In this document: piece by piece, positions 2,561-49,351 of the stretch
How the letters are laid out: every line of letters starts with the position of its first letter
Numbering within the stretch: the first letter of the stretch is position 1
Assembly (NCBI GenBank): GCA_035457505.1
Contig: DATIBL010000097.1
Span: 1-49,351, forward strand
From: Minisyncoccota bacterium
GTDB lineage: Bacteria > Patescibacteriota > Minisyncoccia > Phycocordibacterales > UBA6899
DNA length: 49,351 nt
Reading direction: 5' to 3'
The notes under the pieces: generated by a model
Databases searched by the model: none
What the model was told of the DNA's origin: nothing
The model's input: only the letters and a program-made list of their open reading frames with translations
Translations under genes and position numbers: made by a program

Positions 2561-2564
2561 AGGA

Positions 2565-3401: not shown

Positions 3402-3477
3402 TCTTCATGCATGGTATCGACGCTCGCGGGGATGGTCAAACGCGAGTGAGTCTGAATGAAGATTCTTGAGAGCAGCG

Positions 3478-6168: not shown

Positions 6169-6261
6169 AAGCTATTCCTTTCCTAGTTTGGCGGTTCGGG
6201 CCAAGTTGTCAAATCTGCTGGGTAGAGGTGCTGGAGTGGGTTATCCACACCTATCGTTTGT

Positions 6262-6290
6262 TTGAACTTCCCAAAACAAGTTGCTATACT
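6262..6290 (+). promoter_or_regulatory. sigma70-type promoter for the giant secreted protein gene
   Basis: TTGAAC (6262-6267), a 17-nt spacer, then TATACT (6285-6290). It lies inside the 5' extension of the tracked ORF, which supports the downstream start at 6345. Confidence 0.5.
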
Positions 6291-6344
6291 TGTGGTTATG
6301 GAGGAATTCCCGCAAATGTGGGCATTCCTTTTTCTTTTCGCTAT

Positions 6345-17442: not shown

Positions 17443-18309
17443 TCATCCATTTTTTCCGAGGAAGATCCTCCATCCTGGAAATTCCGGGTATCGATAAGGA
17501 ACAGCTGGGAGGCGCGGATCAGCCTTTCTTTTCTCGCGGTATTCCGTGCTGCTTTGAATACCGAGATTTCGAGCGGCGGCACTTGCTTCTTCCCAGTTCG
17601 GATAGGGGTCTGTGACGTTCTTTCGCGGTGGGATGTCGAGAAATGTCGCCCATCCAGGAAAATCCACGTAGGATTCCGATGGTGCCGCATAGAGGCGCGG
17701 GTCAGATTTGTATTTCCTCGTGTATTGTACCGAGCTTGCGATCCCGATCTCCTTCGCGGCTCGCCCAGCCTCCTGCCATGTCGGATACGGATCTTCGACG
17801 ACATGCCGGAGTCCAAGTATCTTGTTAAAGCCGGGGAAATCTGGGTATACGTCCCAGGGTGAAAACGGGAGCCGTTCGTCCTTTGTACAGAGGGCACGAT
17901 AATCCTCGACCGACAGGATCCCATGCTGACGACAGATGTCCGAGATGTCTGTCCATGAGGGATAAAAATTTTTTTCCTGCCTGCCGAAAAATACATTCCA
18001 TCCGGTGCAGCCTCGGTACGTTGGCGGATCCGCCGGGAGTCGGGGATCCTCGGCGTATCGCTCCCGATATTCCTGCGGAGTCCTGATGCCGAGCGCCTTT
18101 GCAGCGCGCGCCGCATCCTCCCATGTGGGATATCGCTCCACCGCCCGTCTCCCGAGAAAGATCTCCCATCCCGGAAAGTTCTCGCGATAGAGATAGCGAG
18201 GGCTCGAAGGAAGTCGAATGTCCCGCGCATATGTGCGAGCGTACCCTTCTTTCGTCGTGACGCCGAGAACTTTGGCGGCCGCCCCCGCTTCTTGCCATGT
18301 CGGGTAGAA
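17443..18309 (-). repeat. five tandem ~52-58-aa coding repeats, consensus YPTW.EA..AAK.LGI.....Y...Y..DPRLP..P...Y..FPGW..FLG
   Basis: The repeat units start FYPTWQEAGAAAKVLGV, RYPTWEDAARAAKALGI, FYPSWTDISDICRQHGI, PYPTWQEAGRAAKEIGI and PYPNWEEASAAARNLGI. Each ends in (F)PGW..FLG-like residues. Confidence 0.85.
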
Positions 18310-26822: not shown

Positions 26823-27030
26823 AAGCGTGTGGTGATAGCGCTGTTTGAGGCCGACTGAGCGACTCCAAATGCGCGAGTGATAAATCAGGATAAAAAACAG
26901 GTCAGTACTCTTCGTACTGACCATGTATGCGGAAAGTGTAGCGCTTGCGGGGGATCACGTCAAGTGTCCATCGATGTGGACTATTTCGTGCGACGAAAGA
27001 TTGAAAGAGCGTTATACTAGTGAGGAATCT

Positions 27031-28782
27031 ATGCTCGTCCAGGAGGCGAAACTCAAAAAGTTCATCATTGACTCAGGCCTTGCGAGCCGGACGGAAATCT
27101 CCGCTGCCGAAAAAGAAGCCGAGAAGACCGGCGGTTCCGTCGGCGAAGTCCTGGTGAAGCAAGGGAAGATTAGCGCCGACGATCTCCGGCGCGTGCAGGC
27201 ATATATCCTCGGTGTCCCGTTCGTCGATCTCAAGGGCCAAAAGATCGACTTCGGCGTGCTCTCGATGATCCCCGAGCCGATCGCGCGCAAGCACAACATC
27301 GTCGCATTTCGAAAGTCCGATCAGGGGCTTGAAGTTGCGATGCTCGACGTCGACGATCTTGAAGCGATCGATTTTGTCCGCAAGAAGGTTGGCACGCGAA
27401 TTCTCACGCGCCTCACCGATCAGGAGTCCGTGAAGGGTGCGCTCCTGCAGTACCAGAAATCCCTCAAGGCCGAGTTCGGCGACATCATTCAGCAGGAGGC
27501 GCAGTCGATCAAAATGATCGCGGAGTCCGACGGAGGCGAAGTGTCGGAGAAGGATCTCAAAAAGCTTGCCGAGGATCTTCCGGTCGTGCGCATTGTCGAC
27601 ACGCTTTTGAATCACGCGATCATCCAGGGTGCGTCCGATATCCATATCGAGCCGATGGAGAATCAGCTGCTTGTCCGCTACCGCATCGACGGTATCTTGC
27701 ACGACGCGATGGTGCTGCCGCGCGACACAGCGCCGGGTATCACCGCGCGCATCAAAGTGCTCTCGAATCTCAAGCTCGACGAAAAGCGCCTTCCGCAGGA
27801 CGGCCGCTTCAAGATTCAGCTCAACGCCGAAAAGGTGTCCTTCCGCGTGTCGACGCTTCCCACATACTACGGCGAGAAGACGGTCATGCGTTTGCTCCGC
27901 GAATCTTCCGGCGGCTATACGCTCGAGTCGCTTGGATTCCACGGCCGCTCGCTCGAGATTCTGCATGCGTCGACGAATCTCCACACGGGCATGATCCTTG
28001 TAACCGGCCCGACCGGTTACGGAAAGACGACGACGCTCTATACGATGGTCGACATTATGAACACGGCCGACGTGAATATCTCGACCATCGAAGACCCGGT
28101 CGAATACCAGATGCCGCGCGTCAATCAGACGCAGGTGAAGCCGGATATCGGACTCACGTTCGCGATGGGGCTCCGCGCGCTTTTGCGTCAGGACCCGGAT
28201 ATCGTGATGGTCGGAGAAATCCGCGACACCGAGACCGTCTCACTCGCGATCAACGCGTCTTTGACCGGACACGTTGTCCTCTCGACACTGCATACCAATT
28301 CTGCGGCAGGTGCCGTGCCGCGCATGATCGACATGGGTGCTGAGCCGTTTCTGATTATTTCTACGGTCAATGTCGTTGTCGGGCAGCGCCTCGTGCGCCG
28401 GCTCTGTTCACAGAAGGAGCAATATCATCTCACCGATGCTGAGGTTGATGAGATCGGCAAGCACGCAAATCTTGATCTGGTGATGAAGGCGCTTAAGGAC
28501 GAGGGCATCGTTGCAAAGGATGCAACATGGAAGACCGTCCCGTTCTTCAAGCCCAAGCAGTCTGCGGAGTGTGAAGATGGATACAAGGGCCGTATCGGAA
28601 TCCATGAAGTGCTCAAGATGTCGACCGCGATGCGCGATCTTGCGGTGAAGCGCGCGAGTGCGGAAGAGATCGAGAATCAGGCCCGCAAAGAGGGGATGCT
28701 CACGATGCTTGAGGATGGTATCTTCAAGGCGGCGATGGGGATGACGACTATTGAAGAAGTGCTGCGCGTCGTCAACGAATAA
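27031..28782 (+). CDS. pilB: type IV pilus assembly ATPase PilB (GspE family)
   Basis: 583 aa from the ATG at 27031 (GAGGAA RBS). It has an N-terminal GSPII_E-like domain, Walker A GPTGYGKTTTLY, the Asp box IEDPVE, Walker B PDIVMVGEIRD, the His box TGHVVLSTLHTN and a C-terminal Cys-containing segment. Confidence 0.92.
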   Translation: MLVQEAKLKKFIIDSGLASRTEISAAEKEAEKTGGSVGEVLVKQGKISADDLRRVQAYILGVPFVDLKGQKIDFGVLSMIPEPIARKHNIVAFRKSDQGLEVAMLDVDDLEAIDFVRKKVGTRILTRLTDQESVKGALLQYQKSLKAEFGDIIQQEAQSIKMIAESDGGEVSEKDLKKLAEDLPVVRIVDTLLNHAIIQGASDIHIEPMENQLLVRYRIDGILHDAMVLPRDTAPGITARIKVLSNLKLDEKRLPQDGRFKIQLNAEKVSFRVSTLPTYYGEKTVMRLLRESSGGYTLESLGFHGRSLEILHASTNLHTGMILVTGPTGYGKTTTLYTMVDIMNTADVNISTIEDPVEYQMPRVNQTQVKPDIGLTFAMGLRALLRQDPDIVMVGEIRDTETVSLAINASLTGHVVLSTLHTNSAAGAVPRMIDMGAEPFLIISTVNVVVGQRLVRRLCSQKEQYHLTDAEVDEIGKHANLDLVMKALKDEGIVAKDATWKTVPFFKPKQSAECEDGYKGRIGIHEVLKMSTAMRDLAVKRASAEEIENQARKEGMLTMLEDGIFKAAMGMTTIEEVLRVVNE

Positions 28783-33364: not shown

Positions 33365-35179
33365 ATGGCCGAGCGTTTCATTGCACATCTTCGAGCAAAC
33401 CGCGGCGCGGCGCTCTTGATCTCGATCATGTTTTTCTTTGGGATCTCGATCGCAATCTTGATGAGCGGAACCGGATCAGTGATGACCGAGCTTGCGTCAT
33501 ACCGCACGCTTTCGAAGTCGAAGTTCTCCTATGTGGCGAGCGAAGCGGCTGTGGAAGATGCGTTGTATCGCGTCGCAAACAATCGACAGATTTCTGCGAA
33601 CGAGATCTATGTGCTGAACGGCGCAACCTCGACGCTCGCGATGACACTGCTTTCTGGGACGGAGCGGGAGTTTTATACGATTGGCGATGCATCTGGGCGC
33701 ATCCGCAAGGTGTATATGCGTGCGACGAATACCGGAGGTGGGAGTATAAATCTGAATTATGCCGTGCAGGTGGGTGAGGGAGGGGTGGAGGTGGAGAATA
33801 ATGCGAGCGTTACCGGGAACATTCACTCAGGAGGACCCTTAAACGGCGAGAGTAACACGGTCGTCAACGGAAATGTGACTATTTCTTCGGGGATTACCGA
33901 GGGCTATGCGAGTTCGACGGTCTGCACGGGAGGAGGATCGGGCGACGTCGAGATGGGAAGGACAAATCCGTATATTGATCACGCGCAGCAATTCATTCCG
34001 ACGACTTCGGATACGCTCGCCAAGGTCTCACTTTATATTAAACGCACGAGCAACCCATCGAGCCCGACGATCCGCATTGTGACAGACAATGCAGGGAGTC
34101 CGTCCACGACGCAGGTCGGCTCGCAAGCGTTCAATTATTCTTTGGCCGATACCAACTATGGCTGGGTCGACGTCGTTTTTGACACTCCGCCCGCCCTCAC
34201 GGCTGGAACGCCGTATTGGATCGTCTTTGATGCCGGGCAGCACGGGAGTAAATACTGGCATTGGTGTAAGAACACCGCTGATGCATATTCGGACGGTTCT
34301 CCGAAATACAAGCAGGACTGGTCGAGCGGCTCTGGTTCGTGGACGGCGATCGTGGGCGATCTGACATTCAAAACCTTTTTTGGGAATGTGATCGCTGCGA
34401 GCTTGATCCAAGATATGACCGTCAATGGGATCGCGAAGGCAGATACTATTACCGATTCGACGATCAATGGCGATGCCTACTATCAGACGATCACGAATAC
34501 GACGATCACGGGAACTGCATATCCAGGCTCTCCCACTCCTCCTGAAGTGGAACCCCCGGTTTCATCGACAACGATCCAGATGTGGATCGACGAGGCGACG
34601 CTCGGAGGGACGCTGACCGGTGATTTTTCACTCATCAATGGTGCGACCTCAACGCTCGGTCCGCGCAAGCTTGATGGCGATATCTTGGTCGACAACAACG
34701 CGATCCTGACGGTCAGCGGGACGCTTTATGTGACCGGAACGGTGGATTTCTCAAACAACGCGATTGTGCAATGTCATCCGACATACAGCGTGAATAGTTG
34801 CGTGATCGTTGCGGATCAATCGATCGATGTGATGAACAATGTGACGCTCCAGGGGTCCGGCGTCTCTGGGAGTTATTTGATCCTTCTGACGAATTCGAAC
34901 TGTGATAGCACGACGGGAAGCGAGTGTTCGTCGTCAAATACTGCGGTTCGGATTTCCAACAATGCATCCGGCGGCGCGGTCGTCCTTGCGCCGAATGGAG
35001 CGATTCAGATGGATAATAACGCGTCGATGCCTGCCGTGGTGGGGTACAAAGTGGAGCTTGAGAATAACGCGTTCATCAACTACAACGCTGATCTTGCGAA
35101 TATCAACGTGCTCTCGAGTGCCACGTCCACACCTGGCACCGTCGGAGCCTGGCAAGTGAATGCTTGGAGAGAGATCTAG
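33365..35179 (+). CDS. large PilX-N-terminal-domain pilus-associated protein (604 aa), paralog 1
   Basis: The N-terminus RANRGAALLISIMFFFGISIAILMSG resembles the PilX N-terminal anchor. Periodic N-N-(A/V) and G-(N/T)-(V/I) beta-helix-like segments follow. It lies in the pilus operon. Confidence 0.7.
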   Translation: MAERFIAHLRANRGAALLISIMFFFGISIAILMSGTGSVMTELASYRTLSKSKFSYVASEAAVEDALYRVANNRQISANEIYVLNGATSTLAMTLLSGTEREFYTIGDASGRIRKVYMRATNTGGGSINLNYAVQVGEGGVEVENNASVTGNIHSGGPLNGESNTVVNGNVTISSGITEGYASSTVCTGGGSGDVEMGRTNPYIDHAQQFIPTTSDTLAKVSLYIKRTSNPSSPTIRIVTDNAGSPSTTQVGSQAFNYSLADTNYGWVDVVFDTPPALTAGTPYWIVFDAGQHGSKYWHWCKNTADAYSDGSPKYKQDWSSGSGSWTAIVGDLTFKTFFGNVIAASLIQDMTVNGIAKADTITDSTINGDAYYQTITNTTITGTAYPGSPTPPEVEPPVSSTTIQMWIDEATLGGTLTGDFSLINGATSTLGPRKLDGDILVDNNAILTVSGTLYVTGTVDFSNNAIVQCHPTYSVNSCVIVADQSIDVMNNVTLQGSGVSGSYLILLTNSNCDSTTGSECSSSNTAVRISNNASGGAVVLAPNGAIQMDNNASMPAVVGYKVELENNAFINYNADLANINVLSSATSTPGTVGAWQVNAWREI

Positions 35180-35248
35180 TTCCTGGTGCTTTTCCTGAGC
35201 CCGTATTTTGGCTTTCAGGGCCGCTAAGTGTGCTACTATATTGAGTAT

Positions 35249-37105
35249 ATGCGTCGCTCGAGTCCTTTGTGTTCGATCTCTCGGAGCGGAGCCCTGCACG
35301 CGCGGCATGCAGAGCGCGGCGGAGCGCTGCTCCTCTCGATCATGTTCTTTTTCGGGATCTCGATCGCGATCTTGCTCTCCGCGACGACTTCCGTCATCAC
35401 GGAGCTGCGTACCTATCGCGCGCTTGCGGACTCTAAGAGCGCCTTCGTGATCGCAGAGGCGGGGATCGAAGATGGTCTGTATCGCGCCGAGCAGAATATG
35501 GATATCTCGGCGACGGAAATTTATGCGTTGAACGGGGCTACTGGAACGCTGACCTATGTAGATCTCTCTGATACCGAGCAGTTCTATCAGACGGTCGGAA
35601 TTGCGAATGGCCGCGTGCGCAAACTCACTGCGCTTTCGACCAAGAATGTCGATGGAGCGCTTTACTATGGAGCACAGGTCGGAGAGGGGGGGATCATTAT
35701 GCGCAATAATTCGCTGATCGATGGCACCGGACTCATCAAAGGCCGCGTGCACTCAAACGGCCAGATCGACGGGGAGCCTGCCGTGACGATCACCGGCGAC
35801 GTGACGATCGCATCCGGAATCATCGCCGATACGACATCCGCATCTCTTGTCTGCGCTGCCGACGTGGAAGTTGGCCGGTCGAATCCCACTGTCGATCATG
35901 CACAGAGTTTTATTGCATCGACCACGGCGGCGCTCCCGAAGGTCTCGCTGTATATCAAACGCGTTGGAAATCCGAATAATGCCAATCTGCGCATTGCCGA
36001 AGACAATGGAAGCGGAAGTCCGAAGACAACAAGCATTGCCGTGCAATCCCTTCCGTATGCGTCTGCTGACACGAACTATGGCTGGGTGGAGGTCGAATTC
36101 ACGTCGCCGCCAACCCTGACCGGAGGTCAGACGTACTGGATCATCCTCGACGCCGATCAACACAGTGGAAAATACTGGTACTGGTGTCGGGATACAGCGA
36201 ATGCCTATGCGAATGGTTCTCCGAAATATAAGCAGGACTGGTCGAGCGGCTCTGGTTCATGGACGGCGATCGCGGGAGATCTCGATTTCCAGGTCTATTA
36301 TGGCGGAGGAAAGTCGCAGCTCGACGAAGTGATCGTTTCTGGAACTGCCAAAGCCGATTCCATCATGAATTCGCAGATCGGCGTCGACGCATACTATCAA
36401 ACGATCACCAGCACGACCGTGACCGGCGCCTCCTATCCCGGGTCGCCCACGCCGCCCCCGGTTCCACTCCCATACTCCACGACACTGATCGGGCAATGGA
36501 AGTCCGATGCGGAAGCAGGGGGGACGATCACGGGAACCTGCGGTTCGACCGGAGTCGCGGGGTGCAACAACGCGACGACGACGATGGGTCCGCGCAAGAT
36601 AGATGGCGATCTCGTCCTCAACAACAACGAAGAATGGACGATCAGTGGAACGCTTTGGGTCACTGGCAATATCGATCTCTCGAACAATTCCGTTATCCGC
36701 TGTCACGCGAGCTACGCAGCATCGAGCTGTATTATCATCGCGGATGGATGGATCGAGGTCGGGAACAATGTTATTCTCTCGGGATCGGGAACGGCGGGCA
36801 GTTACGTGATGCTGCTCACGACGATTGCGGGGTGCATCGGTCCTGGATCGCCGAATCTTGATTGCGCAAATAACGAAAGTGCGATCCGTGTTTCGAACAA
36901 TGGCCAGGGTGCGCTCTTCTATTCGACTGCGGGGCAGATCTTTCTCTCAAACAACGTGATTGTGACTGCGATCGTCGGATATAAGCTCGAATTGTCCAAT
37001 CTGGCGCAGATCATTTATGACGATCTTGTGCAGCAGATTCATTTTGCGCCGACGGCAACGTCCTCTGACGGAGCATGGAGTGTTGATGAATGGCGCGAAG
37101 AATAG
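35249..37105 (+). CDS. large PilX-N-terminal-domain pilus-associated protein (618 aa), paralog 2
   Basis: AERGGALLLSIMFFFGISIAILLSA has the same architecture as 33365-35179. The two share PKYKQDWSSGSGSWTAI and AYPGSPTPP / SYPGSPTPP blocks. Confidence 0.7.
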   Translation: MRRSSPLCSISRSGALHARHAERGGALLLSIMFFFGISIAILLSATTSVITELRTYRALADSKSAFVIAEAGIEDGLYRAEQNMDISATEIYALNGATGTLTYVDLSDTEQFYQTVGIANGRVRKLTALSTKNVDGALYYGAQVGEGGIIMRNNSLIDGTGLIKGRVHSNGQIDGEPAVTITGDVTIASGIIADTTSASLVCAADVEVGRSNPTVDHAQSFIASTTAALPKVSLYIKRVGNPNNANLRIAEDNGSGSPKTTSIAVQSLPYASADTNYGWVEVEFTSPPTLTGGQTYWIILDADQHSGKYWYWCRDTANAYANGSPKYKQDWSSGSGSWTAIAGDLDFQVYYGGGKSQLDEVIVSGTAKADSIMNSQIGVDAYYQTITSTTVTGASYPGSPTPPPVPLPYSTTLIGQWKSDAEAGGTITGTCGSTGVAGCNNATTTMGPRKIDGDLVLNNNEEWTISGTLWVTGNIDLSNNSVIRCHASYAASSCIIIADGWIEVGNNVILSGSGTAGSYVMLLTTIAGCIGPGSPNLDCANNESAIRVSNNGQGALFYSTAGQIFLSNNVIVTAIVGYKLELSNLAQIIYDDLVQQIHFAPTATSSDGAWSVDEWREE

Positions 37106-41355: not shown

Positions 41356-41418
41356 GAATGTGGTGAAGTTATGAGTATGCGTTCAGTATAGCATGCATGC
41401 GTGGTACCATTGCCCCGT

Positions 41419-43101
41419 ATGCATGAGCCGTTCCAGGGCCGGTATTCTTCGCTGTTGAGCCGGCTTTTGCTTGCGCGGGGGATTGCGGATGTCGAGAGCG
41501 CTGAGCGATTCTTGCATCCCGACTATGCGCGCGATATCGGCGATCCGTTCGGGATCATGGGGATGGAGAGAGCCGTCGAGCGGATTCTTCGCGCGATCAC
41601 GGATCGCGAATCCATCGTCATCTTCGGTGATTATGATTGCGACGGCATTCCGGGATCGGTTGTGCTGCACGATCTCTTTAAGAAGATCGGCTACGATCGT
41701 GTTCGGAACTATATTCCGCATCGGCATCACGAAGGCTACGGACTCAACGCTGCGGCGGTCGAGGGTTTCGGCAAAGACGGTGTCACGCTTCTTATCACTG
41801 TCGATTGCGGGATCACCGACGTCGAAGAGGTTGCGCTTGCGAATACGCTCGGGATCGACGTGATCGTCACGGACCACCATCTTCCTCAGGCAGTACTCCC
41901 TCCTGCGTATGTGATTTTGAACTCCAAACAAGAGGACGACACCTATCACGATGACATGCTCTGCGGAGCCGCTGTTGCGTGGAAGCTCGCGAGCGCGATC
42001 CTCGCGCGCGGAAAGTTTGAGCATATTCCGGAAGGGTGGGAAAAATGGCTGCTCGACATGGCAGGGCTCTCGACGGTAGCGGACATGGTGCCGCTCGTTC
42101 GCGAAAATCGCGCGATCGCACACTTTGGACTCACGGTCCTTCGCCGCTCTCGCCGTCCGGGGCTTGCGGCATTGCTTGCGAAGGCGCGGACCGATCAGCG
42201 CGGACTCACGGAGGATGACATCGGATTTACGATCGCGCCGCGCATCAATGCGGCAAGCCGGATGGATATTCCGATGAATGCATTTCTGATGCTCTCGAGC
42301 GGCGATCCTGCGGAAGCGACAGCGCTCGCGCATCGTCTCCATGCGCTCAACGATGAACGCAAGGCCCTTGTTGCGCGGATCATGAAGGAGGCGCGCGGAA
42401 GACTCGCCGAGCGAGAGGAGATTCCGCCGGTGCTCGTGATCGGCTCGCCGTCGTGGCCCGTCGGCGTCGTCGGGATCGTGGCGAATCAGCTTGCGGAAGC
42501 CTTCGAGCGTCCGACGTTCGTGTGGGGGAAAGAAGGCACAGAGAAGGCAAAGGGATCGTGCCGCTCTGACGGAACGGTAAATATCGTGGAGCTCATGCTT
42601 GCTGCGGAAGATGGCGTATTTGCCGACCGCGGAGGGCACGAATTCTCCGGCGGATTTTCCCTCGCCCCTGATGGCGTCCATCACCTTGAGGCTGTGCTTG
42701 TTTCTGCACTCGAGCGGGTACCCAGAAAGGCGTGGAACGCTGGCGCGCGCGAGCCAGACGCCGAGCTTTCGATCGCTGATGTGAATTGGCAGACCTATCG
42801 CGAGATCGCGCAGCTTGCGCCGTTTGGAGTCGGGAATCCGAAGCCGCTCTTCGCGTTTCCCGATGCGATCGTTCGGAGTGTCGCTTCGTTCGGGAAGGCC
42901 GGCGATCATACGCGGCTCGCGCTTGAGGGGGTCGGAGGAGCGAAGGCGGAGGCGATCGGATTCTTTATGACTCCCGACGATCTCGGTCTTGCCGACGTCG
43001 AGACCCCGCGACCATTCCGGGTGACCGGACATCTTGAGGCCAGCACCTTCCGCGGCCGCCCGGAGCTCCGCATTCGCATTGCCGATGGTTCGCGACGGTG
43101 A
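41419..43101 (+). CDS. recJ: single-stranded-DNA-specific exonuclease RecJ
   Basis: DHH family motifs are present: IFGDYDCDGI, ITVDCG and VTDHH, plus the DHHA1 motif GGHEFSGGF. The ATG at 41419 is preferred over the GTG at 41401. Confidence 0.9.
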   Translation: MHEPFQGRYSSLLSRLLLARGIADVESAERFLHPDYARDIGDPFGIMGMERAVERILRAITDRESIVIFGDYDCDGIPGSVVLHDLFKKIGYDRVRNYIPHRHHEGYGLNAAAVEGFGKDGVTLLITVDCGITDVEEVALANTLGIDVIVTDHHLPQAVLPPAYVILNSKQEDDTYHDDMLCGAAVAWKLASAILARGKFEHIPEGWEKWLLDMAGLSTVADMVPLVRENRAIAHFGLTVLRRSRRPGLAALLAKARTDQRGLTEDDIGFTIAPRINAASRMDIPMNAFLMLSSGDPAEATALAHRLHALNDERKALVARIMKEARGRLAEREEIPPVLVIGSPSWPVGVVGIVANQLAEAFERPTFVWGKEGTEKAKGSCRSDGTVNIVELMLAAEDGVFADRGGHEFSGGFSLAPDGVHHLEAVLVSALERVPRKAWNAGAREPDAELSIADVNWQTYREIAQLAPFGVGNPKPLFAFPDAIVRSVASFGKAGDHTRLALEGVGGAKAEAIGFFMTPDDLGLADVETPRPFRVTGHLEASTFRGRPELRIRIADGSRR

Positions 43102-43167: not shown

Positions 43168-43905
43168 ATGCCGCTCGAAAAACACATTGCGTTTTGTGAT
43201 GGCAGCTCGCTCGGAAATCCTGGTCCGGGAGGGTGGGGCGCGCTTCTCGTGCGTATGTCTGGCCGCGTCGCCGAAATGGGCGGCGGAGAAAAACGCACGA
43301 CGAACAATCGCATGGAGCTCACGGCTGCGATCGAGATTTTCCGCGCGATCGCGGATGAGTCGGGCGATCTCGCGATCCACACGGATTCCTCCTATGTACT
43401 GAACGGCGCAACGAAGTGGGCACGGGGATGGGAGCGGAATGGCTGGATGACTGCTGCAAAGGAACCGGTCGCGAATGATGATCTTTGGAAATTGCTCCTT
43501 CGTCTTGCCGATGAGCGAAAAAAGTTCGGGGCAGTTGCGTGGATAAAGGTCCCCGGACACTCGGGCGTCATCGGCAATGAGCGCGCAGACGTGATCGCGA
43601 CGACATTTGCGGCGGGAGAGACGCCGGAACTCTATGACGGAGAGATCGGCGACTATGCCTATGACGTACTTGCGATCGCTGCGGACCCTGCGCTTGAGCA
43701 GAGCCGGAGTGCCGCCAAATCGCGCTCCCGCGCGAAAGCCTATTCCTACGTGAGCATGGTGGGCAAAGACGTGCGTTTTCATCAGACCTGGGGCGAATGC
43801 GAAGCGCGCGTGAAAGGCGTCGCGGGTGCAAAATATCAAAAGGCGTTCTCGCCCGCCGACGAAGCCGCGATCGTCAAAAAGTGGGGCGGACAGAGTTCGC
43901 GATGA
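43168..43905 (+). CDS. rnhA: ribonuclease HI with a C-terminal hybrid-binding (RNase H1 HBD / viroplasmin-like) domain
   Basis: The catalytic core has CDGSSLGNPGPGGWG (D), NNRMELTA (E), IHTDSSYV (D) and GHSGVIGNERAD (H, D). Residues ~191-239, YSYVSMVGKDVRFHQTWGECEARVKGVAGAKYQKAFSPADEAAIVKKW, fit the fYaV..G..pGIy..W.e....v.G..ga.yK.F....eA pattern. Confidence 0.88.
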   Translation: MPLEKHIAFCDGSSLGNPGPGGWGALLVRMSGRVAEMGGGEKRTTNNRMELTAAIEIFRAIADESGDLAIHTDSSYVLNGATKWARGWERNGWMTAAKEPVANDDLWKLLLRLADERKKFGAVAWIKVPGHSGVIGNERADVIATTFAAGETPELYDGEIGDYAYDVLAIAADPALEQSRSAAKSRSRAKAYSYVSMVGKDVRFHQTWGECEARVKGVAGAKYQKAFSPADEAAIVKKWGGQSSR

Positions 43906-45431
43906 TGCATACGCCTTCGATATTTCTGATCGCACCTGCGCTTGCGCTCGGAATCATCGGGGGTGTTGTTTCGGCTCACGCGAGCGCGTTCGGTGTGGCC
44001 CTCGCAGCGCTCTATGGGCTTTTGGGTGTTGCGCTTGCCCTGCTCGCTGTTGTCTCTCGCGATGCAATGTTTCGTGCGCGCGGACTTCTTCTTGCTGTCG
44101 CACTTCTCTCTGCTGGGATCGGCGCGCTCAGATTTGTTGCCGACGATACTCCCGCGCATCCCGCGCTTGCGCGCGCGGTCGGGAGTGCGGTGATCGTCGA
44201 AGGTGTTGTTGTCGAAGATCCGGACCGGCGGGCTGACGTTGCGTATCTTATCGTCGCTGCAGAATCGCTTCGCGAGAGCGGCGGCGCGGTGGCGGCGTCT
44301 GGTCGGATCCGCGTGAGCGTTCCGCGATATCCGGAATATCGCTACGGCGATCGGCTTCGCATCAAAGGGACGCTCGAAAAGCCGGAGGCATTTCTCGACG
44401 AGGCGACAGGGCGCATGATCGCGTTTGATCGCATGCTGCGCGCACAAGACATCCGCTTTGCGCTCCGTGCCGCGGATGTTGTCCGAATCGCAGCGGACGC
44501 GGGGAACCCGATCGTCGCGGTGCTTTCGGATACGAAACATGCACTGCTTCTGCGCACCGCGCGCGTGATCGACGAGCCGGCGTTCGCGTTTCTTGCCGGG
44601 GTGACGCTCGGAGAGAAGGGCGGACTCGGGAATGCATGGCGGGAGCGATTTGCGCGGACTGGCCTCTCGCATGTGGTCGTCCTCTCCGGATACAACATGA
44701 CGATCGTGGCGGATTGGATCGGAAAGGCGCTCGCATGGGCATGGCCGTCGGTCCGCATTTCCGGAGGTATCACCGCGATCGCGCTTTTTGCTGTGATGGC
44801 CGGCGGCGGCGCTGCGACGGTCCGTGCGGCGATCATGGCAGCCATCGTGCTTGTCGCTCGAACACGCGGGAAAGAAGATGTCGCGACTCGCGCGCTCCTC
44901 TACGCTGCGGCTGCAATGGTGCTCGTTTCCCCGCGGATCGCGCTCGACGATCTCGGGTTCCAGCTCTCCTTCCTTGCATCGCTCGGATTGATCCATCTCG
45001 CGGGACCGCTCGAGCAATTGCTTTCGTCCATCCGGCTGCGATGGATCCGCGAGGTTGCGGCAACGACGCTCGCTGCGCAAATTGCGGTGCTGCCGCTCAT
45101 CCTCGGGAAGATGGGAATCTTTTCTCTGATCGCGCCGATCGCGAACATTGCCGTGCTTCCATTCATCCCGTTCGCAATGATAGCGACGTTTGCAACAGCG
45201 CTCTGTGCGTTCCTCGTGCCGCCGCTTGCGTTCGTTCCGGCGCTGGTGGCACAAACGCTCGCGGAGGGGATGCTCGCGCTCGTGTCGCTGTTTTCCGCGC
45301 TCCCATTTGCTGCGGTCCGTGTTCCCGAGATTCCGAGCGCACTCGTTGCGATCTTCTCCGCGGGGCTTTGTGTTGCGGTTATCCGCGCGGGGTCTCGCGT
45401 TCGATCTCGGCAAGCACCTCGTTCGAATTGA
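43902..45431 (+). CDS. comEC: ComEC/Rec2 family DNA internalisation channel (short form)
   Basis: 509 aa from the ATG at 43902, which overlaps the rnhA stop (ATGA). It is a polytopic membrane protein with ComEC-like FLAGVTLGEKGGL, GLSHVVVLSGYNMTIV and FQLSFLASLGLI motifs. No C-terminal metallo-beta-lactamase domain is present. Confidence 0.8.
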   Translation: MMHTPSIFLIAPALALGIIGGVVSAHASAFGVALAALYGLLGVALALLAVVSRDAMFRARGLLLAVALLSAGIGALRFVADDTPAHPALARAVGSAVIVEGVVVEDPDRRADVAYLIVAAESLRESGGAVAASGRIRVSVPRYPEYRYGDRLRIKGTLEKPEAFLDEATGRMIAFDRMLRAQDIRFALRAADVVRIAADAGNPIVAVLSDTKHALLLRTARVIDEPAFAFLAGVTLGEKGGLGNAWRERFARTGLSHVVVLSGYNMTIVADWIGKALAWAWPSVRISGGITAIALFAVMAGGGAATVRAAIMAAIVLVARTRGKEDVATRALLYAAAAMVLVSPRIALDDLGFQLSFLASLGLIHLAGPLEQLLSSIRLRWIREVAATTLAAQIAVLPLILGKMGIFSLIAPIANIAVLPFIPFAMIATFATALCAFLVPPLAFVPALVAQTLAEGMLALVSLFSALPFAAVRVPEIPSALVAIFSAGLCVAVIRAGSRVRSRQAPRSN

Positions 45432-45975: not shown

Positions 45976-46106
45976 CTGGGCAGCATACCATGCACATGGT
46001 GCATTTACAGAACGGGAGATCTCTTGCGTAACTGATGTGCGCTTGTCACGAAGAAGCTCGGCGCTATCATGGAAAATGGAACAGTCCTTCCTGAAAGGAA
46101 TATCAC

Positions 46107-46802
46107 ATGAAACCGGGACTTCTGACTGGCGACCGTTCATGGTTCCTGGTCGCACGCTGGGCCATGGTCAACCTGCTCGGTCTCGCTTTCGCCTTTCTTG
46201 CGTGGAAGGCGGGATGGGCGGCAATCGTCATCGCGAGCGACACGCTCTATATTTCGCGCTTCATTGCGGTGCTCTTCGTGGTCGGACTGATCGTCTCGCT
46301 GTGGCGGGCGCTCCAGGTCTCGCGCGAACTCAACATCGTGCGCTCCTTCATGGAGAAACTCGCGAGCGATCATGAGCAGGCCTTCGCCTGGCTCTCCGGC
46401 ACGCGCTCACGAGTCGCGCTTCTTGTTGCGGATTACGCACAAGCGCTTCCGGAAGATCGTGCAACGGTCGTGAACATCATCAACGAAACGATCGGCGTGA
46501 AGACGATCTTTGTGCCATTCGTGGCTGCGTCTCTCACGATGCTCGGCCTTCTTGGAACGGTCGTTGGCGCGAAGATCGCATTCGGAGTCATTGATCCGCA
46601 GCTCATCACGGATGTCGCGAAGTCGGTTCCGATGATCGGGCGGATCGTCTCGGGCCTCGCGATCGCGATCGACACCACGATCGTCGGTTCGATCGGCTGG
46701 TTCTGGATCGTCTGGGTCAACTATCCGGTCCGGAATTCTTCGGCGCAGCTTGCGACGGAAATCAAACGCGCGGGGGTCTATTATGTTCGACATCTTCGAT
46801 AA
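46107..46802 (+). CDS. MotA/TolQ/ExbB-family proton-channel protein
   Basis: 231 aa, with an AAAGGA RBS. It has TM helices and the family core LTMLGLLGTVVGAKIAF...VSGLAIAIDTTIVGSIG, where Thr residues sit at the positions of the TolQ/ExbB channel threonines. Confidence 0.75.
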   Translation: MKPGLLTGDRSWFLVARWAMVNLLGLAFAFLAWKAGWAAIVIASDTLYISRFIAVLFVVGLIVSLWRALQVSRELNIVRSFMEKLASDHEQAFAWLSGTRSRVALLVADYAQALPEDRATVVNIINETIGVKTIFVPFVAASLTMLGLLGTVVGAKIAFGVIDPQLITDVAKSVPMIGRIVSGLAIAIDTTIVGSIGWFWIVWVNYPVRNSSAQLATEIKRAGVYYVRHLR

Positions 46803-47439
46803 CAGCGAGGAGACGCTTGGTCTCGATACCGCGAACCGAGATTTCCCCTGGCTGCTCTTTCTGTCTTTCTTTGCGCTCTTTGTGATCCTGCTTATCCTGA
46901 TCCGTCCGGATGTGCCGGCAACGGACGACCGCCTCTCGCTGCTTCCGGGCCGCGTGTGTGCGGAGATCCGCTGGAGCGATACAGAGAACATCGATATCGA
47001 TCTCTGGACGCAGGCGCCCTTGGACGAGCGTCCGGTCGGCTACAATCATGCAGCCGACAAGATCTCGAGCTTGATGCGCGATGATCGTGGTAAAGAGGAG
47101 GGACTCTCTCCGCTTAACTACGAGATCAACTGCACGCAGGGCCTCCCGTCCGGCGAGTACACGTTCAACGTCCAGTACTACAAGGACCATCAGCTGCGAA
47201 ATCCGGTTCCGCCCGTTGCGGTCGACGTGACGATCACGGTGCATCCGCCGGAGGGAGCGTCGATAAAAATGACCGAGACCATCACGCTTGCCGAAGAGGG
47301 CGAGGAAATCACGGTTCGGCGCTTTGCGACGGACTCGTCAGGCAAGGTCATCGATGGTTCGGTAACCAAGCTCTTTCGGAAGCTCTCAAGCGCGATCAAG
47401 TTCACGCCCGGTGCAGTCAACGGGTACGACGGGTTCTAA
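46783..47439 (+). CDS. single-pass membrane protein with an Asp-headed TM helix (MotB/ExbD/TolR-like anchor) and a YfaP/DUF2135-like beta-sandwich domain
   Basis: 218 aa, overlapping the upstream gene by 20 nt. NRD-FPWLLFLSFFALFVILLILI places an Asp at the cytoplasmic edge of the TM helix. The extracytoplasmic part has IRWSDTENIDIDLWTQAP...GEYTFNVQYY, reminiscent of the DxDLhv...G.Y.v.v.yy pattern. This is motif-level inference. Confidence 0.55.
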   Translation: MFDIFDNSEETLGLDTANRDFPWLLFLSFFALFVILLILIRPDVPATDDRLSLLPGRVCAEIRWSDTENIDIDLWTQAPLDERPVGYNHAADKISSLMRDDRGKEEGLSPLNYEINCTQGLPSGEYTFNVQYYKDHQLRNPVPPVAVDVTITVHPPEGASIKMTETITLAEEGEEITVRRFATDSSGKVIDGSVTKLFRKLSSAIKFTPGAVNGYDGF

Positions 47440-47448
47440 GGAGGCATC

Positions 47449-48054
47449 ATGGAATCGATCCAAATCTACTTCCTGCTCGCCGCGCTACTGGTCATCGTGT
47501 CGGCCGGCGTGGCCGCATGGTCGCGCCGCCGCTGGCACTGGAAAGCACTCGCGCTCCTCTCCGCCGCATGCTTCATTCCGATCGTGTGGGTGGCCTTCGA
47601 CGACTTGCTCTCTCATCCGAAGCCGATCGCGTATGATGACTTCGAGGCGGAGTATCTCCCGAATGCGACGGTTCGCATACCAGTGCTCTTCGGCGAGGTT
47701 CGCGACGGAGTCGGCATTTATGTCCTCGTGCGTCTGCCGAGCTCGCCCGAGCCGCGCTACTTCCTCTTCGCATGGAACAACCAGCTTGCGGAAGAACTCG
47801 AGGAGGGGCTCCGTCAGAAACGCCGTGCCAAGCAGGGCGGCGAACTGGAACTTCGTCGCAGGGGATCCGGGCAGCCAGGGACTGAGAAGGATGGCCAGGA
47901 AGGGGGAACCGAGAAGAACTGGTCGAACGAGCGCTTTAGCGTGAATCCGACCCCGCCCCTTCCGCCGAAGGACCCTGCCGCAGAAGAGTATGCGCCACCT
48001 CCTCCTCCGTCACCGGTGCCGGCGCCGCCCGCGCCTGGCCGCATCCAAACATGA
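47449..48054 (+). CDS. two-TM membrane protein with a Pro-rich C-terminal tail
   Basis: 201 aa. The TAAGGAGG RBS overlaps the preceding stop. The TM segments are IYFLLAALLVIVSAGVAAW and ALALLSAACFIPIVWVAF. The tail reads PTPPLPPKDPAAEEYAPPPPPSPVPAPPAPG. Confidence 0.6.
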   Translation: MESIQIYFLLAALLVIVSAGVAAWSRRRWHWKALALLSAACFIPIVWVAFDDLLSHPKPIAYDDFEAEYLPNATVRIPVLFGEVRDGVGIYVLVRLPSSPEPRYFLFAWNNQLAEELEEGLRQKRRAKQGGELELRRRGSGQPGTEKDGQEGGTEKNWSNERFSVNPTPPLPPKDPAAEEYAPPPPPSPVPAPPAPGRIQT

Positions 48055-48066
48055 GAGATATGCTCC

Positions 48067-48097
48067 ACCCGCTTCGAAGGAAGCGGGTTTTCATTTT
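48067..48097 (+). terminator. rho-independent terminator closing the three-gene operon
   Basis: ACCCGCTTC (48067-48075) pairs with GAAGCGGGT (48080-48088) around a 4-nt loop, followed by TTTCATTTT. Confidence 0.75.
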
Positions 48098-48168
48098 CCG
48101 ATTCTTTACACGGCTGGCTTCGGCACATACGATGGCCGAGGAGCCGTTCTTCTGCAATGGAGCGTGTC

Positions 48169-49351
48169 ATGAAGAGACCAAAGCGTCACTTGTCGTTTGG
48201 GCTCGCGATCGCGCTCCTCGCGCTCGCAGTCTTCGTTCCGCAGTTTCTGCGATCATCCTTTCCGGACCTGACGCTCGGGAGTCCCGATGTTTCGGCGCCG
48301 ACTGATCTTTCACGTTATGACGATGAAACTGCGCGGAAGCTTCGGATCGGAGAAATGCTCGCGCCGCATCTTGAGCGCATCGAGCGCGAATATCTCGAGC
48401 ATTTCGACGAAGATGCGCTTCTTCGGAAAGCGATCTCAAGCCTGTATCGCCTCGACGATTTTTCGCGATTCTATACCAAGGAAGAATACGCCGCGCTGCG
48501 GCGTACCTCTGGAGGATATGCGATCGGGACGGGTCTCGCGATCGCTGCTGTGCGCGGCGCGTATGTGGTGACGGAGGTCGTCGATGGGAGCTCCGCGAAA
48601 CACCGCGGCGTCCGTGTCGGAGACCGTATCACTGTAATCATCGATGGGGGCGTCTTGCATTCGGCGGCAAGCCTGACCTATCCCGCTCTCATGAAGATCG
48701 TGCATCCGCCCGACGCCGCGGAAGGATCGCGCGTGCGAGTGGTCATGCTCGGAAAGAACGGCCGCCGCCGCGATGTGCTGCTCGAACGGACGCTCATCCC
48801 GGAGCGGACCGTCCACGATGCAAGCATCGATGTCGACGGGATCGCCTTTGTTCGGATCAGCCGCTTTGTCGGGGAGCGTGATCATGGATTCCCCAGCACT
48901 GCCGGCGAGCTTGAGCGTGCGCTGAGGCGGCTCATCCAGGACGGCCGCGTCCGCGCGCTCGTGGTGGATCTGCGCGGGAATGGTGGCGGAAATTTCACCG
49001 TCTCCATCTTGTGCGCCGATCTCGTTCTTGCCCGCGGAACGATCGTATCGACGCGCGGCAGGATCGACGGTGCGAATAGCCGCATCGACGCCGAACAGGA
49101 AGATGGTTTCCCTGGCGACATTCTGCGCGGTGCGCCGATCGCGATTCTCGCGGATCGGGATTCTGCCTCCGCGTCCGAAGTGTTCATTGGCGCACTTGTC
49201 GATGCCGATCCGAAGCGTGCCGTGCTCGTCGGCGAGCGCACCTACGGCAAAGGTGTTGCGCAGTCTTTCCGCGATCTTCCCGGAGGAGAAGGTGTAAAGA
49301 TGACGACGCATAAGTTCTTTTCTCCAAAAGGCCGTTCTCCGGAGAAGAAAG
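48169..49351 (+). CDS. S41 family C-terminal processing peptidase (Ctp/Prc-like), 3'-truncated by the window edge
   Basis: This gene is not in the ORF track because no stop falls inside the window. My own translation is open from the ATG at 48169 to the edge. It starts MKRPKRHLSFGLAIALLALAVFVP (signal/anchor). It has a PDZ-like segment VVDGSSAKHRGVRVGDRI, and S41 motifs VVDLRGNGGG, DRDSASASEVF (Ser) and GERTYGKGV (Lys). Confidence 0.85.
   Translation, partial: MKRPKRHLSFGLAIALLALAVFVPQFLRSSFPDLTLGSPDVSAPTDLSRYDDETARKLRIGEMLAPHLERIEREYLEHFDEDALLRKAISSLYRLDDFSRFYTKEEYAALRRTSGGYAIGTGLAIAAVRGAYVVTEVVDGSSAKHRGVRVGDRITVIIDGGVLHSAASLTYPALMKIVHPPDAAEGSRVRVVMLGKNGRRRDVLLERTLIPERTVHDASIDVDGIAFVRISRFVGERDHGFPSTAGELERALRRLIQDGRVRALVVDLRGNGGGNFTVSILCADLVLARGTIVSTRGRIDGANSRIDAEQEDGFPGDILRGAPIAILADRDSASASEVFIGALVDADPKRAVLVGERTYGKGVAQSFRDLPGGEGVKMTTHKFFSPKGRSPEKK

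What the first reader, a model, noticed from the sequence alone, without database searches (positions are those of the whole stretch)
46107..48097. Self-contained MotA/ExbB-type ion-channel operon with non-canonical partner proteins
Three co-directional genes are packed tightly: a 20-nt overlap, then a 9-nt gap with TAAGGAGG. A clean terminator closes the unit.

- Gene 1 has the MotA/TolQ/ExbB core (LGLLGTVVG ... AIDTTIVG), with Thr at the channel positions.
- Gene 2 has one TM helix headed by an Asp (NRDFPWLLFLSFF). This is the position of the proton-binding Asp in MotB, ExbD and TolR. Its outer domain is neither OmpA-like nor ExbD-like. It carries IDIDLW...YTFNVQYY, which looks like a YfaP/DUF2135-type beta-sandwich.
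- Gene 3 has two TM helices and a TonB/TolA-like Pro-rich spacer (PPPPPSPVPAPPAP) but no TonB C-terminal domain.

No flagellar, Tol-Pal, TonB-receptor or gliding genes are in the window. The rest of the gene content looks monoderm/CPR-like, so the process this putative 5:2-type motor energises is unclear. Its neighbours are envelope-related (DedA, S41 peptidase, ComEC).
Basis: partly seen in the sequence, partly recalled or inferred. Interest (0 to 1): 0.7.

Follow-up and report, generated by a model that had tools for sequence, protein, structure and literature searches.

The report
Uncharacterised MotA/ExbB-type three-gene membrane motor
Three tightly packed genes in this candidate-phyla-radiation bacterium encode what looks like a proton-driven membrane motor with two unknown partner proteins, and the same trio, which no searched paper or database describes, recurs in hundreds of bacterial species and in phages.

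Summary
Three co-directional genes (46107-46802, 46783-47439, 47449-48054) have a 20-nt overlap and a 9-nt gap carrying GGAGG. A promoter-like site lies upstream and a strong hairpin terminator downstream.

- **Gene 1** is a divergent MotA/ExbB/TolQ protein. Its Pfam score is just below the cutoff, but all top 50 fold matches are ZorA/ExbB/TolQ. Its two conserved Thr align with TolQ T145 and T178.
- **Gene 2** has one TM helix headed by an Asp that is 98% conserved. Its outer domain is a beta-sandwich distantly related to DUF2135/YfaP, not to ExbD/TolR or OmpA.
- **Gene 3** is a 2-TM protein of a new family. Its long proline tail is lineage-specific, so it is not TonB/TolA-like.

The trio is a conserved unit, found in order in 84 of 90 loci, with unconserved flanks. 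It is not specific to this bacterial group. At least 558 species genomes carry it, mostly Alphaproteobacteria including Azospirillum. So do at least 167 viral contigs and the isolated rhizobiophage 16-3. In phages and in related candidate-phyla bacteria an exported serine protease often sits beside it.

The most likely mechanism is a 5:2-type ion-driven motor acting outside the membrane. Its biological output is unknown. I rate it a new variant of a known kind.

The parts
46043..46070 (+). Sigma-70-like promoter candidate (TTGTCA-16 nt-TATCAT), 37 nt upstream of gene 1
   Evidence: Consensus scan, 10 of 12 matches. This is a consensus match only; function was not shown.
46107..46802 (+). Gene 1 (231 aa): divergent MotA/ExbB/TolQ-type channel subunit, the putative pentameric 'A' subunit. 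It has a short cytoplasmic insert (about aa 70-135). The conserved channel Thr are T151 (LGLLGTVVG) and T190/T191 (AIDTTIVG).
   Evidence: Pfam PF01618 scores 21.4 bits, E = 2e-4, just under the 22.9 cutoff, while homologues pass it. The family profile against PDB sequences hits only MotA/TolQ/ZorA in its top 9. The AF2 model has pLDDT 80.9. All top 50 Foldseek PDB hits are ZorA/ExbB/TolQ, with probability about 1 for nearly all and TM-score up to 0.60. hhalign to E. coli TolQ gives E = 9.6e-5, with T151 aligned to T145 and T191 to T178.
46783..47439 (+). Gene 2 (218 aa): the putative dimeric 'B' or axle subunit. One TM helix (about aa 20-40) is headed by Asp20 (NRDFPWLLF...). Its extracytoplasmic 8-strand beta-sandwich (aa 57-183) has invariant acidic and aromatic motifs (W64, D71-x-D73-L-W, P79, Y87, D100, E114, N129).
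   Evidence: The AF2 model has pLDDT 84.7. The Asp is conserved in 98% of 86 cellular trios and 98% of 65 viral ones. hhalign to E. coli YfaP (DUF2135) gives E = 1.2e-4, probability 55%, and 20 of 58 members weakly hit PF09906. There is no relation to TolR. No PDB fold match reaches E <= 1e-3.
47437..47444 (+). Gene 2 stop codon fused to a Shine-Dalgarno sequence (TAAGGAGG), 4 nt before the gene 3 ATG
   Evidence: Read directly from the sequence.
47449..48054 (+). Gene 3 (201 aa): third subunit of a new family. It has two TM helices joined by a positively charged loop (WSRRRWHWK). These are followed by the invariant LLSxPKP, a small external domain (PRYF...W...LAEEL), a charged linker and the conserved motif F-S-V-N-P-T-P-P-L-P-P-K. 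The extra PPPPPSPVPAPPAP tail is lineage-specific.
   Evidence: Alignment of 16 orthologues and conservation in 85 trios. There are no Pfam, PDB-sequence or TolA matches.
48067..48098 (+). Intrinsic terminator: a 9-bp GC-rich stem, GAAG loop and T-rich tail, closing the operon
   Evidence: -19 kcal/mol, z = -3.1.
48169..49351 (+). Downstream neighbour: an exported S41 (C-terminal processing) peptidase that runs off the window end. It is a possible functional partner and not part of the transcription unit.
   Evidence: Pfam Peptidase_S41, E = 1.9e-35. The same neighbour is present in L001. Proteases of another family flank the trio in other candidate-phyla bacteria and in phages.

Best explanation
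The three genes encode one cytoplasmic-membrane complex of the MotA/ExbB/TolQ ('5:2 ion-driven motor') kind.

**Proposed assembly (inferred).** Gene 1 forms the channel-bearing outer ring. Gene 2 supplies the central helices, whose conserved Asp takes up and releases protons (or Na+) against the ring of conserved Thr in gene 1. Ion flow then turns ring and axle relative to each other. The beta-sandwich of gene 2 is DUF2135-like, rich in invariant acidic residues and probably binds Ca2+ or a glycan. It sits outside the membrane and either anchors the axle to the wall or contacts the target. Gene 3 is a 2-TM accessory subunit, probably docked on the outside of the ring, that presents a small external domain and a PPK-ending tail.

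**Where the work is done (inferred).** Phage copies of gene 1 lack the cytoplasmic insert but keep all external parts. The work or signal is therefore most likely delivered on the outer face of the membrane. In phages and candidate-phyla bacteria it may act together with an exported serine protease encoded alongside.

**Shown:** family membership of gene 1, the conserved Asp and Thr, the domain architectures, and strict co-occurrence in fixed order.

**Inferred:** the 5:2 stoichiometry, ion coupling, topology, and any link to proteolysis or the cell envelope.
For: **Gene 1 belongs to MotA/ExbB/TolQ.**
- Pfam E = 2e-4.
- PDB profile hits are all MotA/TolQ/ZorA.
- All top 50 fold hits are ZorA/ExbB/TolQ.
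- hhalign to TolQ puts T151 and T191 on the functional T145 and T178.

**Gene 2 fits the axle role.**
- Its TM Asp is 98% conserved in cells and in viruses.
- The only NCBIfam and PADLOC hits with a bearing on this are single weak MotB and ZorB hits.
- It has a confident TM-plus-beta-sandwich model.

**The trio is a unit.**
- It occurs in order g1-g2-g3 in 84 of 90 loci, with overlapping or abutting genes.
- It occurs in the same order in 64 of 80 viral loci.
- Its flanks are not conserved.

**Other support.**
- Viral gene 1 has a median of 157 aa, lacks the cytoplasmic insert and retains G/T motifs.
- Published precedent exists for TolQ-like proteins paired with an Asp-bearing 'transpore helix' fused to a non-ExbD domain (PMC12204202 section 8).
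- A protease gene lies immediately upstream on the same strand in phage 16-3, phage NV1.1.1, 10 IMG/VR loci and Azambacteria. These proteases carry signal or lipobox sequences and an intact His and Ser.
Against: - No complex prediction or experiment was available, so stoichiometry and the Asp-Thr contact are by analogy only.
- The window's own gene 1 scores below Pfam's gathering cutoff.
- All sequence links to solved motors are weak (E about 1e-3 to 1e-4, hhalign probability 55-58%).
- Two gene 2 relatives (P0021, P0022) lack the Asp.
- The Asp lies at the very start of the helix next to an Arg, so it could be a boundary residue rather than an in-pore one.
- The DUF2135 link is marginal, and DUF2135 itself has no known function.
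- No protease lies within 5 kb in the proteobacterial loci, so the protease link is not universal.
- In the window the S41 gene lies beyond a terminator.
Confidence: 0.65

Rival explanations
1. The trio is a conflict module for anti-phage defence or superinfection exclusion. It would work as an envelope-sensing MotA/B-like channel, as ZorAB does in Zorya. When triggered it would either dissipate the membrane potential (as the lambda RexB channel is thought to do; my own knowledge) or direct an exported protease at envelope targets. This is not exclusive of the motor model; it concerns the biological output.
For: - The distribution is patchy across phyla: Alpha- and Gammaproteobacteria, Bacteroidota, Verrucomicrobiota, Nitrospirota and candidate-phyla bacteria.
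- Flanks are variable.
- Tandem extra copies occur in L031 and L075, and there are two places per Azospirillum replicon.
- It is present in the temperate phage 16-3 and its relatives, among early and accessory genes next to nucleases and phosphatases.
- It is present in at least 167 IMG/VR contigs.
- The best sequence and fold hits of gene 1 include ZorA.
Against: - No nuclease, NTPase or other recognisable effector is linked to it.
- It is not in PADLOC-DB beyond E about 0.01 hits to ZorA/ZorB.
- In candidate-phyla bacteria it sits in stable housekeeping neighbourhoods (dprA-topA, pth, lepB, hisS) rather than defence islands.
- Gene 1 lacks the long ZorA tail.
Confidence: 0.25
2. The trio is an ordinary ExbB-ExbD-TonB or TolQ-TolR-TolA system, merely too diverged to recognise, that energises outer-membrane transport or outer-membrane tethering.
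For: - The three-gene layout (channel subunit, single-TM Asp protein, membrane-anchored protein with prolines) mimics exbB-exbD-tonB.
- Gene 1 is closest in fold to ExbB/TolQ/ZorA.
- Most carriers are diderm Proteobacteria.
Against: - The gene 2 ectodomain is an all-beta sandwich with no similarity to TolR/ExbD (hhalign probability 2.8%; no PF02472 hit).
- Gene 3 has two TM helices, no SHLS/His motif, no TonB or TolA C-terminal domain, and its proline tract is not conserved.
- The trio occurs in Paceibacterota, Azambacteria and Saccharibacteria, which are generally held to lack an outer membrane (my own knowledge), and in phages.
- No TonB-dependent receptor or Pal/TolB gene is linked.
Confidence: 0.04
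3. Gene 1 with genes 2 and 3 forms a gated ion channel or membrane-protein scaffold with no rotary or force-transducing role. For example, it could be a regulatory platform that holds or activates an exported protease.
For: - Viral gene 1 is reduced to four TM helices, so no cytoplasmic partner is needed.
- There is a recurrent adjacent exported protease.
- No identifiable rotor or force target is linked.
Against: - Every structurally characterised member of the MotA/ExbB fold with an Asp-bearing partner is a 5:2 motor (PMC9389320 abstract; PDB entries).
- Strict conservation of the Asp and the Thr ring implies ion coupling rather than a passive scaffold.
Confidence: 0.06

Closest known systems
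ExbB-ExbD-TonB and TolQ-TolR-TolA (proteobacterial 5:2 motors with a force transducer)
   Same: Three adjacent genes in the same order of roles. Gene 1 shares the fold and the two channel Thr with TolQ/ExbB. Gene 2 has a single TM helix with an Asp near its cytoplasmic end. Gene 3 is membrane-anchored with an external part.
   Different: - The gene 2 ectodomain is a DUF2135-like beta-sandwich, not the ExbD/TolR alpha/beta domain.
- Gene 3 has two TM helices, no SHLS motif, no TonB/TolA C-terminal domain and no conserved long proline or helical spacer.
- The trio occurs in bacteria without an outer membrane and in phages.
ZorA-ZorB of the Zorya anti-phage system
   Same: ZorA is the best sequence-profile and fold hit of gene 1 (8vvn). 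Both systems are horizontally mobile.
   Different: No long ZorA cytoplasmic tail, no ZorB peptidoglycan-binding domain and no ZorC/D/E effectors. PADLOC scores are only E about 0.01.
TolQ-like proteins paired with 'transpore-helix'-vWA proteins (Origin and Evolution of Bacterial Periplasmic Force Transducers, PMC12204202, section 8)
   Same: A TolQ-like gene lacks a tolR/exbD neighbour. Its partner carries an Asp-bearing TM helix fused to a non-ExbD external domain and is predicted to sit inside the pentamer.
   Different: There the external domain is vWA and partners come in heterologous pairs. Here it is a DUF2135-like sandwich plus a distinct 2-TM third subunit. That paper's text has no occurrence of 'Patescibacteria', 'CPR' or 'sandwich'.
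MotA-MotB / PomA-PomB flagellar stator units
   Same: Possibly a four-helix topology in gene 1 (an extra N-terminal hydrophobic helix at aa 11-34). An Asp-bearing single-TM partner. One gene 2 relative gives a weak MotB hit.
   Different: No torque-generating cytoplasmic domain, no OmpA-like peptidoglycan-binding domain and no flagellar genes in the window.
DUF2135 / E. coli YfaP (alpha-2-macroglobulin operon protein of unknown function)
   Same: Shares the motif series W-D..D-x-D-L...P-D/G...Y...D-x-D...G...E...G-x-Y-x-V-x-x-Y-Y over 75 aligned columns.
   Different: YfaP is not adjacent to any MotA-like gene in E. coli K-12. The window protein itself does not reach any Pfam threshold.

Membership tests
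MotA/ExbB/TolQ proton-channel family (PF01618) | Significant match to the family profile | tested here: inconclusive
   The window protein scores 21.4 bits against a gathering cutoff of 22.9, E = 2e-4. Its orthologues carry precomputed PF01618 hits. The family profile against PDB sequences hits only MotA/TolQ/ZorA in its top 9, best E = 1.1e-3.
MotA/ExbB/TolQ proton-channel family (PF01618) | The family fold: paired long TM helices plus a cytoplasmic helical extension | tested here: met
   The AF2 model has pLDDT 80.9. All top 50 Foldseek PDB hits are ZorA/ExbB/TolQ chains, with probability about 1.0 for nearly all and TM-score up to 0.60.
MotA/ExbB/TolQ proton-channel family (PF01618) | Conserved Thr in the last two TM helices that line the pore (TolQ T145 and T178) | tested here: met
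   hhalign aligns T151 with T145 and T191 with T178. These Thr are 94-98% conserved in 86 cellular trios and 82-92% in viral ones.
5:2 ion-driven motors (A5B2 complexes) | A pentamer of A subunits around two B-subunit helices, with the B Asp facing the A Thr ring | not testable with these tools
   No multimer prediction is available here. Only the parts list is shown: the Asp-headed helix and strict adjacency.
ExbD/TolR (PF02472) | Periplasmic ExbD/TolR alpha/beta domain | tested here: not met
   No Pfam hit in the window protein or in 58 relatives. hhalign against E. coli TolR gives probability 2.8%. The model is an all-beta sandwich.
MotB / OmpA-like stator anchor | C-terminal OmpA-like peptidoglycan-binding domain | tested here: not met
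   No OmpA hit. One relative gives a weak MotB hit, E = 0.0035.
TonB / TolA force transducers | A single N-terminal TM helix with the SHLS/His motif, a long Pro-rich or helical spacer, and a TonB/TolA C-terminal domain | tested here: not met
   Gene 3 has two TM helices with no conserved His. Its proline tract is present only in the window and in L001. There is no Pfam hit. hhalign against TolA gives probability 5%.
DUF2135 (PF09906, YfaP-like) | Match to the DUF2135 profile or sequence | tested here: inconclusive
   The window protein has no hit at E <= 1. 20 of 58 relatives hit weakly, best E = 0.011. The family profile against E. coli YfaP gives E = 1.2e-4, probability 55%, over 75 columns with matching motifs.
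Zorya (ZorAB plus effectors) | ZorA with a long cytoplasmic tail, ZorB, and linked ZorC/D or ZorE effector genes | tested here: not met
   PADLOC ZorA hits reach only E = 0.01-0.03. Gene 1 is 231 aa and has no tail. No effector genes are linked in 90 loci.

The most novel reading that the evidence does not exclude
The trio is a previously unrecognised functional class of ion-driven 5:2 motor, shared by bacteria and their phages. It would use membrane potential to act on the cell envelope from the outer face of the cytoplasmic membrane. In phages and candidate-phyla bacteria it would work with an exported serine protease, for example to remodel or cleave envelope proteins for superinfection exclusion, host takeover or envelope quality control. 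This would make it a phage-encoded MotA/ExbB-type motor, of which I know no earlier report, and it would be tractable in phage 16-3/Sinorhizobium and in Azospirillum.
Probability: 0.25. Interest if true: 0.85.

Novelty: new variant of a known kind. Interest (0 to 1): 0.66.

Why it matters
The known MotA/ExbB-type motors drive flagella, TonB transport, Tol-Pal, gliding/T9SS and Zorya defence. Each newly characterised type has revealed a new way of delivering membrane energy to the envelope.

This trio is a compact and widespread family whose gene 2 and gene 3 carry no curated annotation.
- Gene 2 has about 1,500 clusters at 50% identity.
- At least 558 species genomes carry it.
- At least 167 viral contigs carry it.

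It occurs in organisms without an outer membrane and in phages, so its target must differ from those of the known systems. It also gives the orphan domain DUF2135 its first mechanistic context.

Carriers include cultivable and genetically tractable systems (Azospirillum brasilense, and rhizobiophage 16-3 on Sinorhizobium meliloti). Its function is therefore directly testable.

Tried and rejected
1. **Ordinary ExbBD-TonB or TolQRA.** Rejected. Genes 2 and 3 show no relation to TolR or TolA, and Pfam gives no ExbD, TonB or OmpA hits.
2. **Gene 3's proline stretch as a TonB-like spacer.** Rejected as a family feature.
3. **A solved structure for the gene 2 ectodomain.** Foldseek against PDB found nothing at E <= 1e-3, only generic Ig-like or adhesin sandwiches. 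BFVD gave only BACON-like and uncharacterised sandwiches with TM-score below 0.4. PDB sequence searches were empty for genes 2 and 3.
4. **Conserved flanking genes beyond the trio.** Clustering of neighbours in 90 loci found none. My crude ORF picking in GC-rich DNA also produced spurious antisense ORFs, so that analysis is rough.
5. **PHROGs.** No family for the window proteins or for phage 16-3 p038, p040 or p042.
6. **NCBIfam and PADLOC.** No family beyond single weak MotB and ZorB hits and weak ZorA hits for gene 1.
7. **Literature.** 'DUF2135' gave 0 papers. 'YfaP' gave nothing functional. 'Patescibacteria + ExbB' gave nothing relevant. In term searches, the MotAB-evolution paper and the AP-16-3 phage genome paper do not mention this cassette. 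The force-transducer paper likewise has no 'Patescibacteria', 'CPR' or 'sandwich', and the section 8 I read does not describe it.
Full report
**1. The observation**

The region holds three co-directional ORFs.
- Gene 1: 46107-46802, 231 aa.
- Gene 2: 46783-47439, 218 aa. I use the ATG at 46783 because the orthologues begin there.
- Gene 3: 47449-48054, 201 aa.

Genes 1 and 2 overlap by 20 nt. Genes 2 and 3 are 9 nt apart, with TAAGGAGG spanning the gene 2 stop codon. A 9-bp GC-rich hairpin with a T-rich tail follows at 48067-48098 (-19 kcal/mol, z = -3.1). A sigma-70-like site lies at 46043-46070.

The neighbours are ComEC, a DedA/VTT protein and an S41 peptidase. The contig is an NCBI record labelled Candidatus Paceibacterota. 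Fifteen further window proteins scanned include a PilB-type ATPase and RNase Y but no flagellar, Tol or TonB components.

**2. Gene 1**

- Pfam gives MotA_ExbB at 21.4 bits, E = 2e-4, just below the 22.9 cutoff.
- PADLOC and NCBIfam give only weak ZorA hits.
- A profile of 18 family members hits only MotA/TolQ/ZorA among its top nine PDB sequences.
- An AlphaFold2 model (pLDDT 80.9) finds ZorA, ExbB and TolQ chains as all of its top 50 PDB matches. Probability is about 1 for nearly all and TM-score reaches 0.60.
- hhalign against E. coli TolQ (E = 9.6e-5) aligns LGLLGT151VVG with GLFGT145VWG, and AIDTT191IVG with ALIAT178AIG. By established knowledge of the Tol and Ton motors, these are the pore-lining threonines.
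- These residues are 94-98% conserved across 86 trios.

Gene 1 is therefore a divergent but genuine member of the MotA/ExbB/TolQ superfamily, with a short cytoplasmic insert.

**3. Gene 2**

The window protein matches no Pfam, NCBIfam or PADLOC family. Its AlphaFold2 model (58-sequence alignment, pLDDT 84.7) shows a long N-terminal helix at residues 11-39, followed by an eight-strand beta-sandwich at 57-183.

The Asp that heads the hydrophobic helix (NRD20FPWLLF) is present in 98% of 86 cellular and 98% of 65 viral orthologues. Two relatives lack it.

The sandwich has many invariant residues: W64, D71-x-D73-L-W, P79, Y87, D100, E114 and N129. This pattern suggests a metal or ligand site, which is my inference.

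It has no convincing solved or viral structural relative and no relation to TolR. 20 of 58 family members weakly hit PF09906. The family profile aligns to E. coli YfaP over 75 columns at E = 1.2e-4, probability 55%, with the motifs in register.

**4. Gene 3**

No family or structure matches were found. An alignment of 16 orthologues shows:
- two TM helices joined by a basic loop;
- an invariant LLSRPKP;
- a small domain with PR.Y..PW and a helix;
- a charged linker;
- a conserved C-terminal F-Y-A-x-P-Q-P-x-x-P-P-K motif.

The long PPPPPSPVPAPPAP tract occurs only in the window and its nearest relative. The TonB/TolA analogy is therefore not supported at the level of family features.

**5. Conservation as a unit and distribution**

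- Gene 1 has only 18 relatives in the word-indexed search. Their contigs already showed the same trio in four different contexts.
- An exhaustive HMMER search with a gene 2 profile found 1,539 clusters at 50% identity with E <= 1e-3. Nearly all of the best 150 listed are 185-230 aa.
- The best 80 are mostly Alphaproteobacteria: Geminicoccaceae, Kiloniellales and Rhodospirillales, including cultured Denitrobaculum and Pelagibius.
- Others are Gammaproteobacteria, Burkholderiales, Bacteroidota, Verrucomicrobiia, Nitrospiraceae and Saccharibacteria.
- Azospirillum brasilense and A. argentinense replicons carry it at two places each.
- With HMMs for all three proteins, 84 of 90 loci have g1-g2-g3 adjacent and in order. 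Three of the six exceptions are contig ends, and the others are phage-like contigs L007-L010 cut just after gene 1.
- Flanking genes are not conserved.

The trio is thus a self-contained, widely distributed module. It is not specific to candidate-phyla bacteria.

**6. Phages**

A tblastn search of isolated phages found gene 2 relatives in ten rhizobiophages.
- In temperate phage 16-3, p038 is a short gene 1 (E = 3e-11), p040 a full-length gene 2 (E = 4e-54) and p042 a weak gene 3 (E = 1e-3). Small ORFs lie between them.
- Sinorhizobium phage NV1.1.1 has the same set, with a homing endonuclease inserted between genes 1 and 2.
- IMG/VR holds 167 viral contigs with a gene 2 relative. Of the best 80, 64 carry all three genes in order and 74 carry genes 1 and 2.
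- Viral gene 1 has a median of 157 aa. It lacks the cytoplasmic insert but keeps the Gly/Thr motifs.

The parts kept in every version are the membrane core and the external domains. From this I infer that the output lies on the outer face of the membrane.

**7. A recurrent protease neighbour**

- A trypsin-like serine protease gene lies immediately upstream of gene 1 on the same strand. This holds in phage 16-3 (p036), NV1.1.1, ten IMG/VR loci and Candidatus Azambacteria.
- These proteases have signal or lipoprotein leaders and an intact His and Ser.
- Related candidate-phyla loci have a trypsin-like gene just downstream.
- The window and L001 have an S41 peptidase downstream.
- None was found within 5 kb in the proteobacterial loci.

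This is suggestive of a functional link in some lineages. It is not a defining feature.

**8. Mechanism**

The best-supported model is a MotA/ExbB-type, ion-driven A5B2 complex. Gene 2's Asp-bearing helices sit inside a gene 1 ring. Gene 2's sandwich and gene 3 act outside the membrane.
- Shown: family membership, key residues, architecture and co-inheritance.
- Inferred: stoichiometry, ion coupling and output.

A published precedent exists for TolQ-like proteins paired with an Asp-bearing transpore helix fused to a non-ExbD (vWA) domain (PMC12204202).

The rivals are:
- a defence or superinfection-exclusion role. The mobility, phage carriage and ZorA resemblance favour it; the lack of an effector and the housekeeping context in candidate-phyla bacteria count against it;
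- an ordinary Ton or Tol system, rejected on domain tests;
- a non-rotary channel or scaffold.

**9. Novelty**

No paper found in the searchable library describes this cassette. NCBIfam and PHROGs have no model for any of the three proteins, and neither Pfam nor PADLOC has a model for gene 2 or gene 3. Source annotations call gene 2 'hypothetical protein'.

It is a new variant of a known kind, a 5:2-type motor with new partner domains. The unexpected extra is that phages carry compact versions. I score interest at 0.66.

Noticed in passing
L100 (phage 16-3, NC_011103) 2160-5048; L099 (phage NV1.1.1) 2910-6147: The isolated temperate rhizobiophages encode an exported trypsin-like protease followed by compact versions of all three genes (p036, p038, p040, p042). 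All are annotated only as 'pNNN' or hypothetical. In NV1.1.1 a homing endonuclease (phrog_314) is inserted between the gene 1-like and gene 2-like genes.
   Followed up: partly
L007-L010 (Logan contigs, for example L007 5044-5864): Phage-like contigs (DUF5662, a NinI-type metallophosphatase, many small ORFs) end with a 181-aa gene 1 homologue and the first 47 aa of a gene 2 homologue. This gives independent evidence of phage carriage.
   Followed up: partly
L031 3104-5618; L075 3148-10596: Some alphaproteobacterial genomes carry tandem duplicated or triplicated copies of the module, or of gene 2 alone, within 10 kb.
   Followed up: no
P0021, P0022 (gene 2 relatives, contigs of 1.8-2.4 kb): These two relatives lack the otherwise 98%-conserved Asp at the head of the TM helix (QLAGLQKF instead of NRDFPW). 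I did not check whether they still pair with a gene 1.
   Followed up: no
window 26923-28782 (and ORFs to about 33344): A PilB/GspE-type secretion ATPase (T2SSE, E = 4e-123) with an MshEN domain, probably part of a type IV pilus cluster. Together with ComEC at 43797-45431, this fits the DNA-uptake apparatus typical of candidate-phyla bacteria.
   Followed up: no
window 6228-10430, 33365-35179, 35228-37105, 41383-43032: Four large ORFs (1400, 604, 625 and 549 aa) have no Pfam match at the thresholds used (E <= 1e-5 for the first three, E <= 1e-3 for the last).
   Followed up: no
window 17443-19560 (minus strand): A ResIII/DEAD-type helicase carrying an 'Integrase repeat unit' (PF14882, E = 5e-27). 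This is an unusual domain combination.
   Followed up: no
L004 5908-11274 (281-kb proteobacterial contig): Here the trio lies between a PQQ-dependent dehydrogenase/cytochrome c cluster and a 332-aa YVTN-type beta-propeller gene. The gene 3 orthologue is highly diverged but keeps the C-terminal ...LPPKP ending.
   Followed up: no
L137 (IMGVR_UViG_3300026189_001009, 123-kb contig): This 'viral' contig looks cellular around the trio (L7/L12-like, Hsp20-like, ClpS-like and SUF-like ORFs; GC 33%). Some IMG/VR hits may therefore be prophage-bearing or misassigned bacterial DNA, and the viral count is an upper estimate.
   Followed up: no
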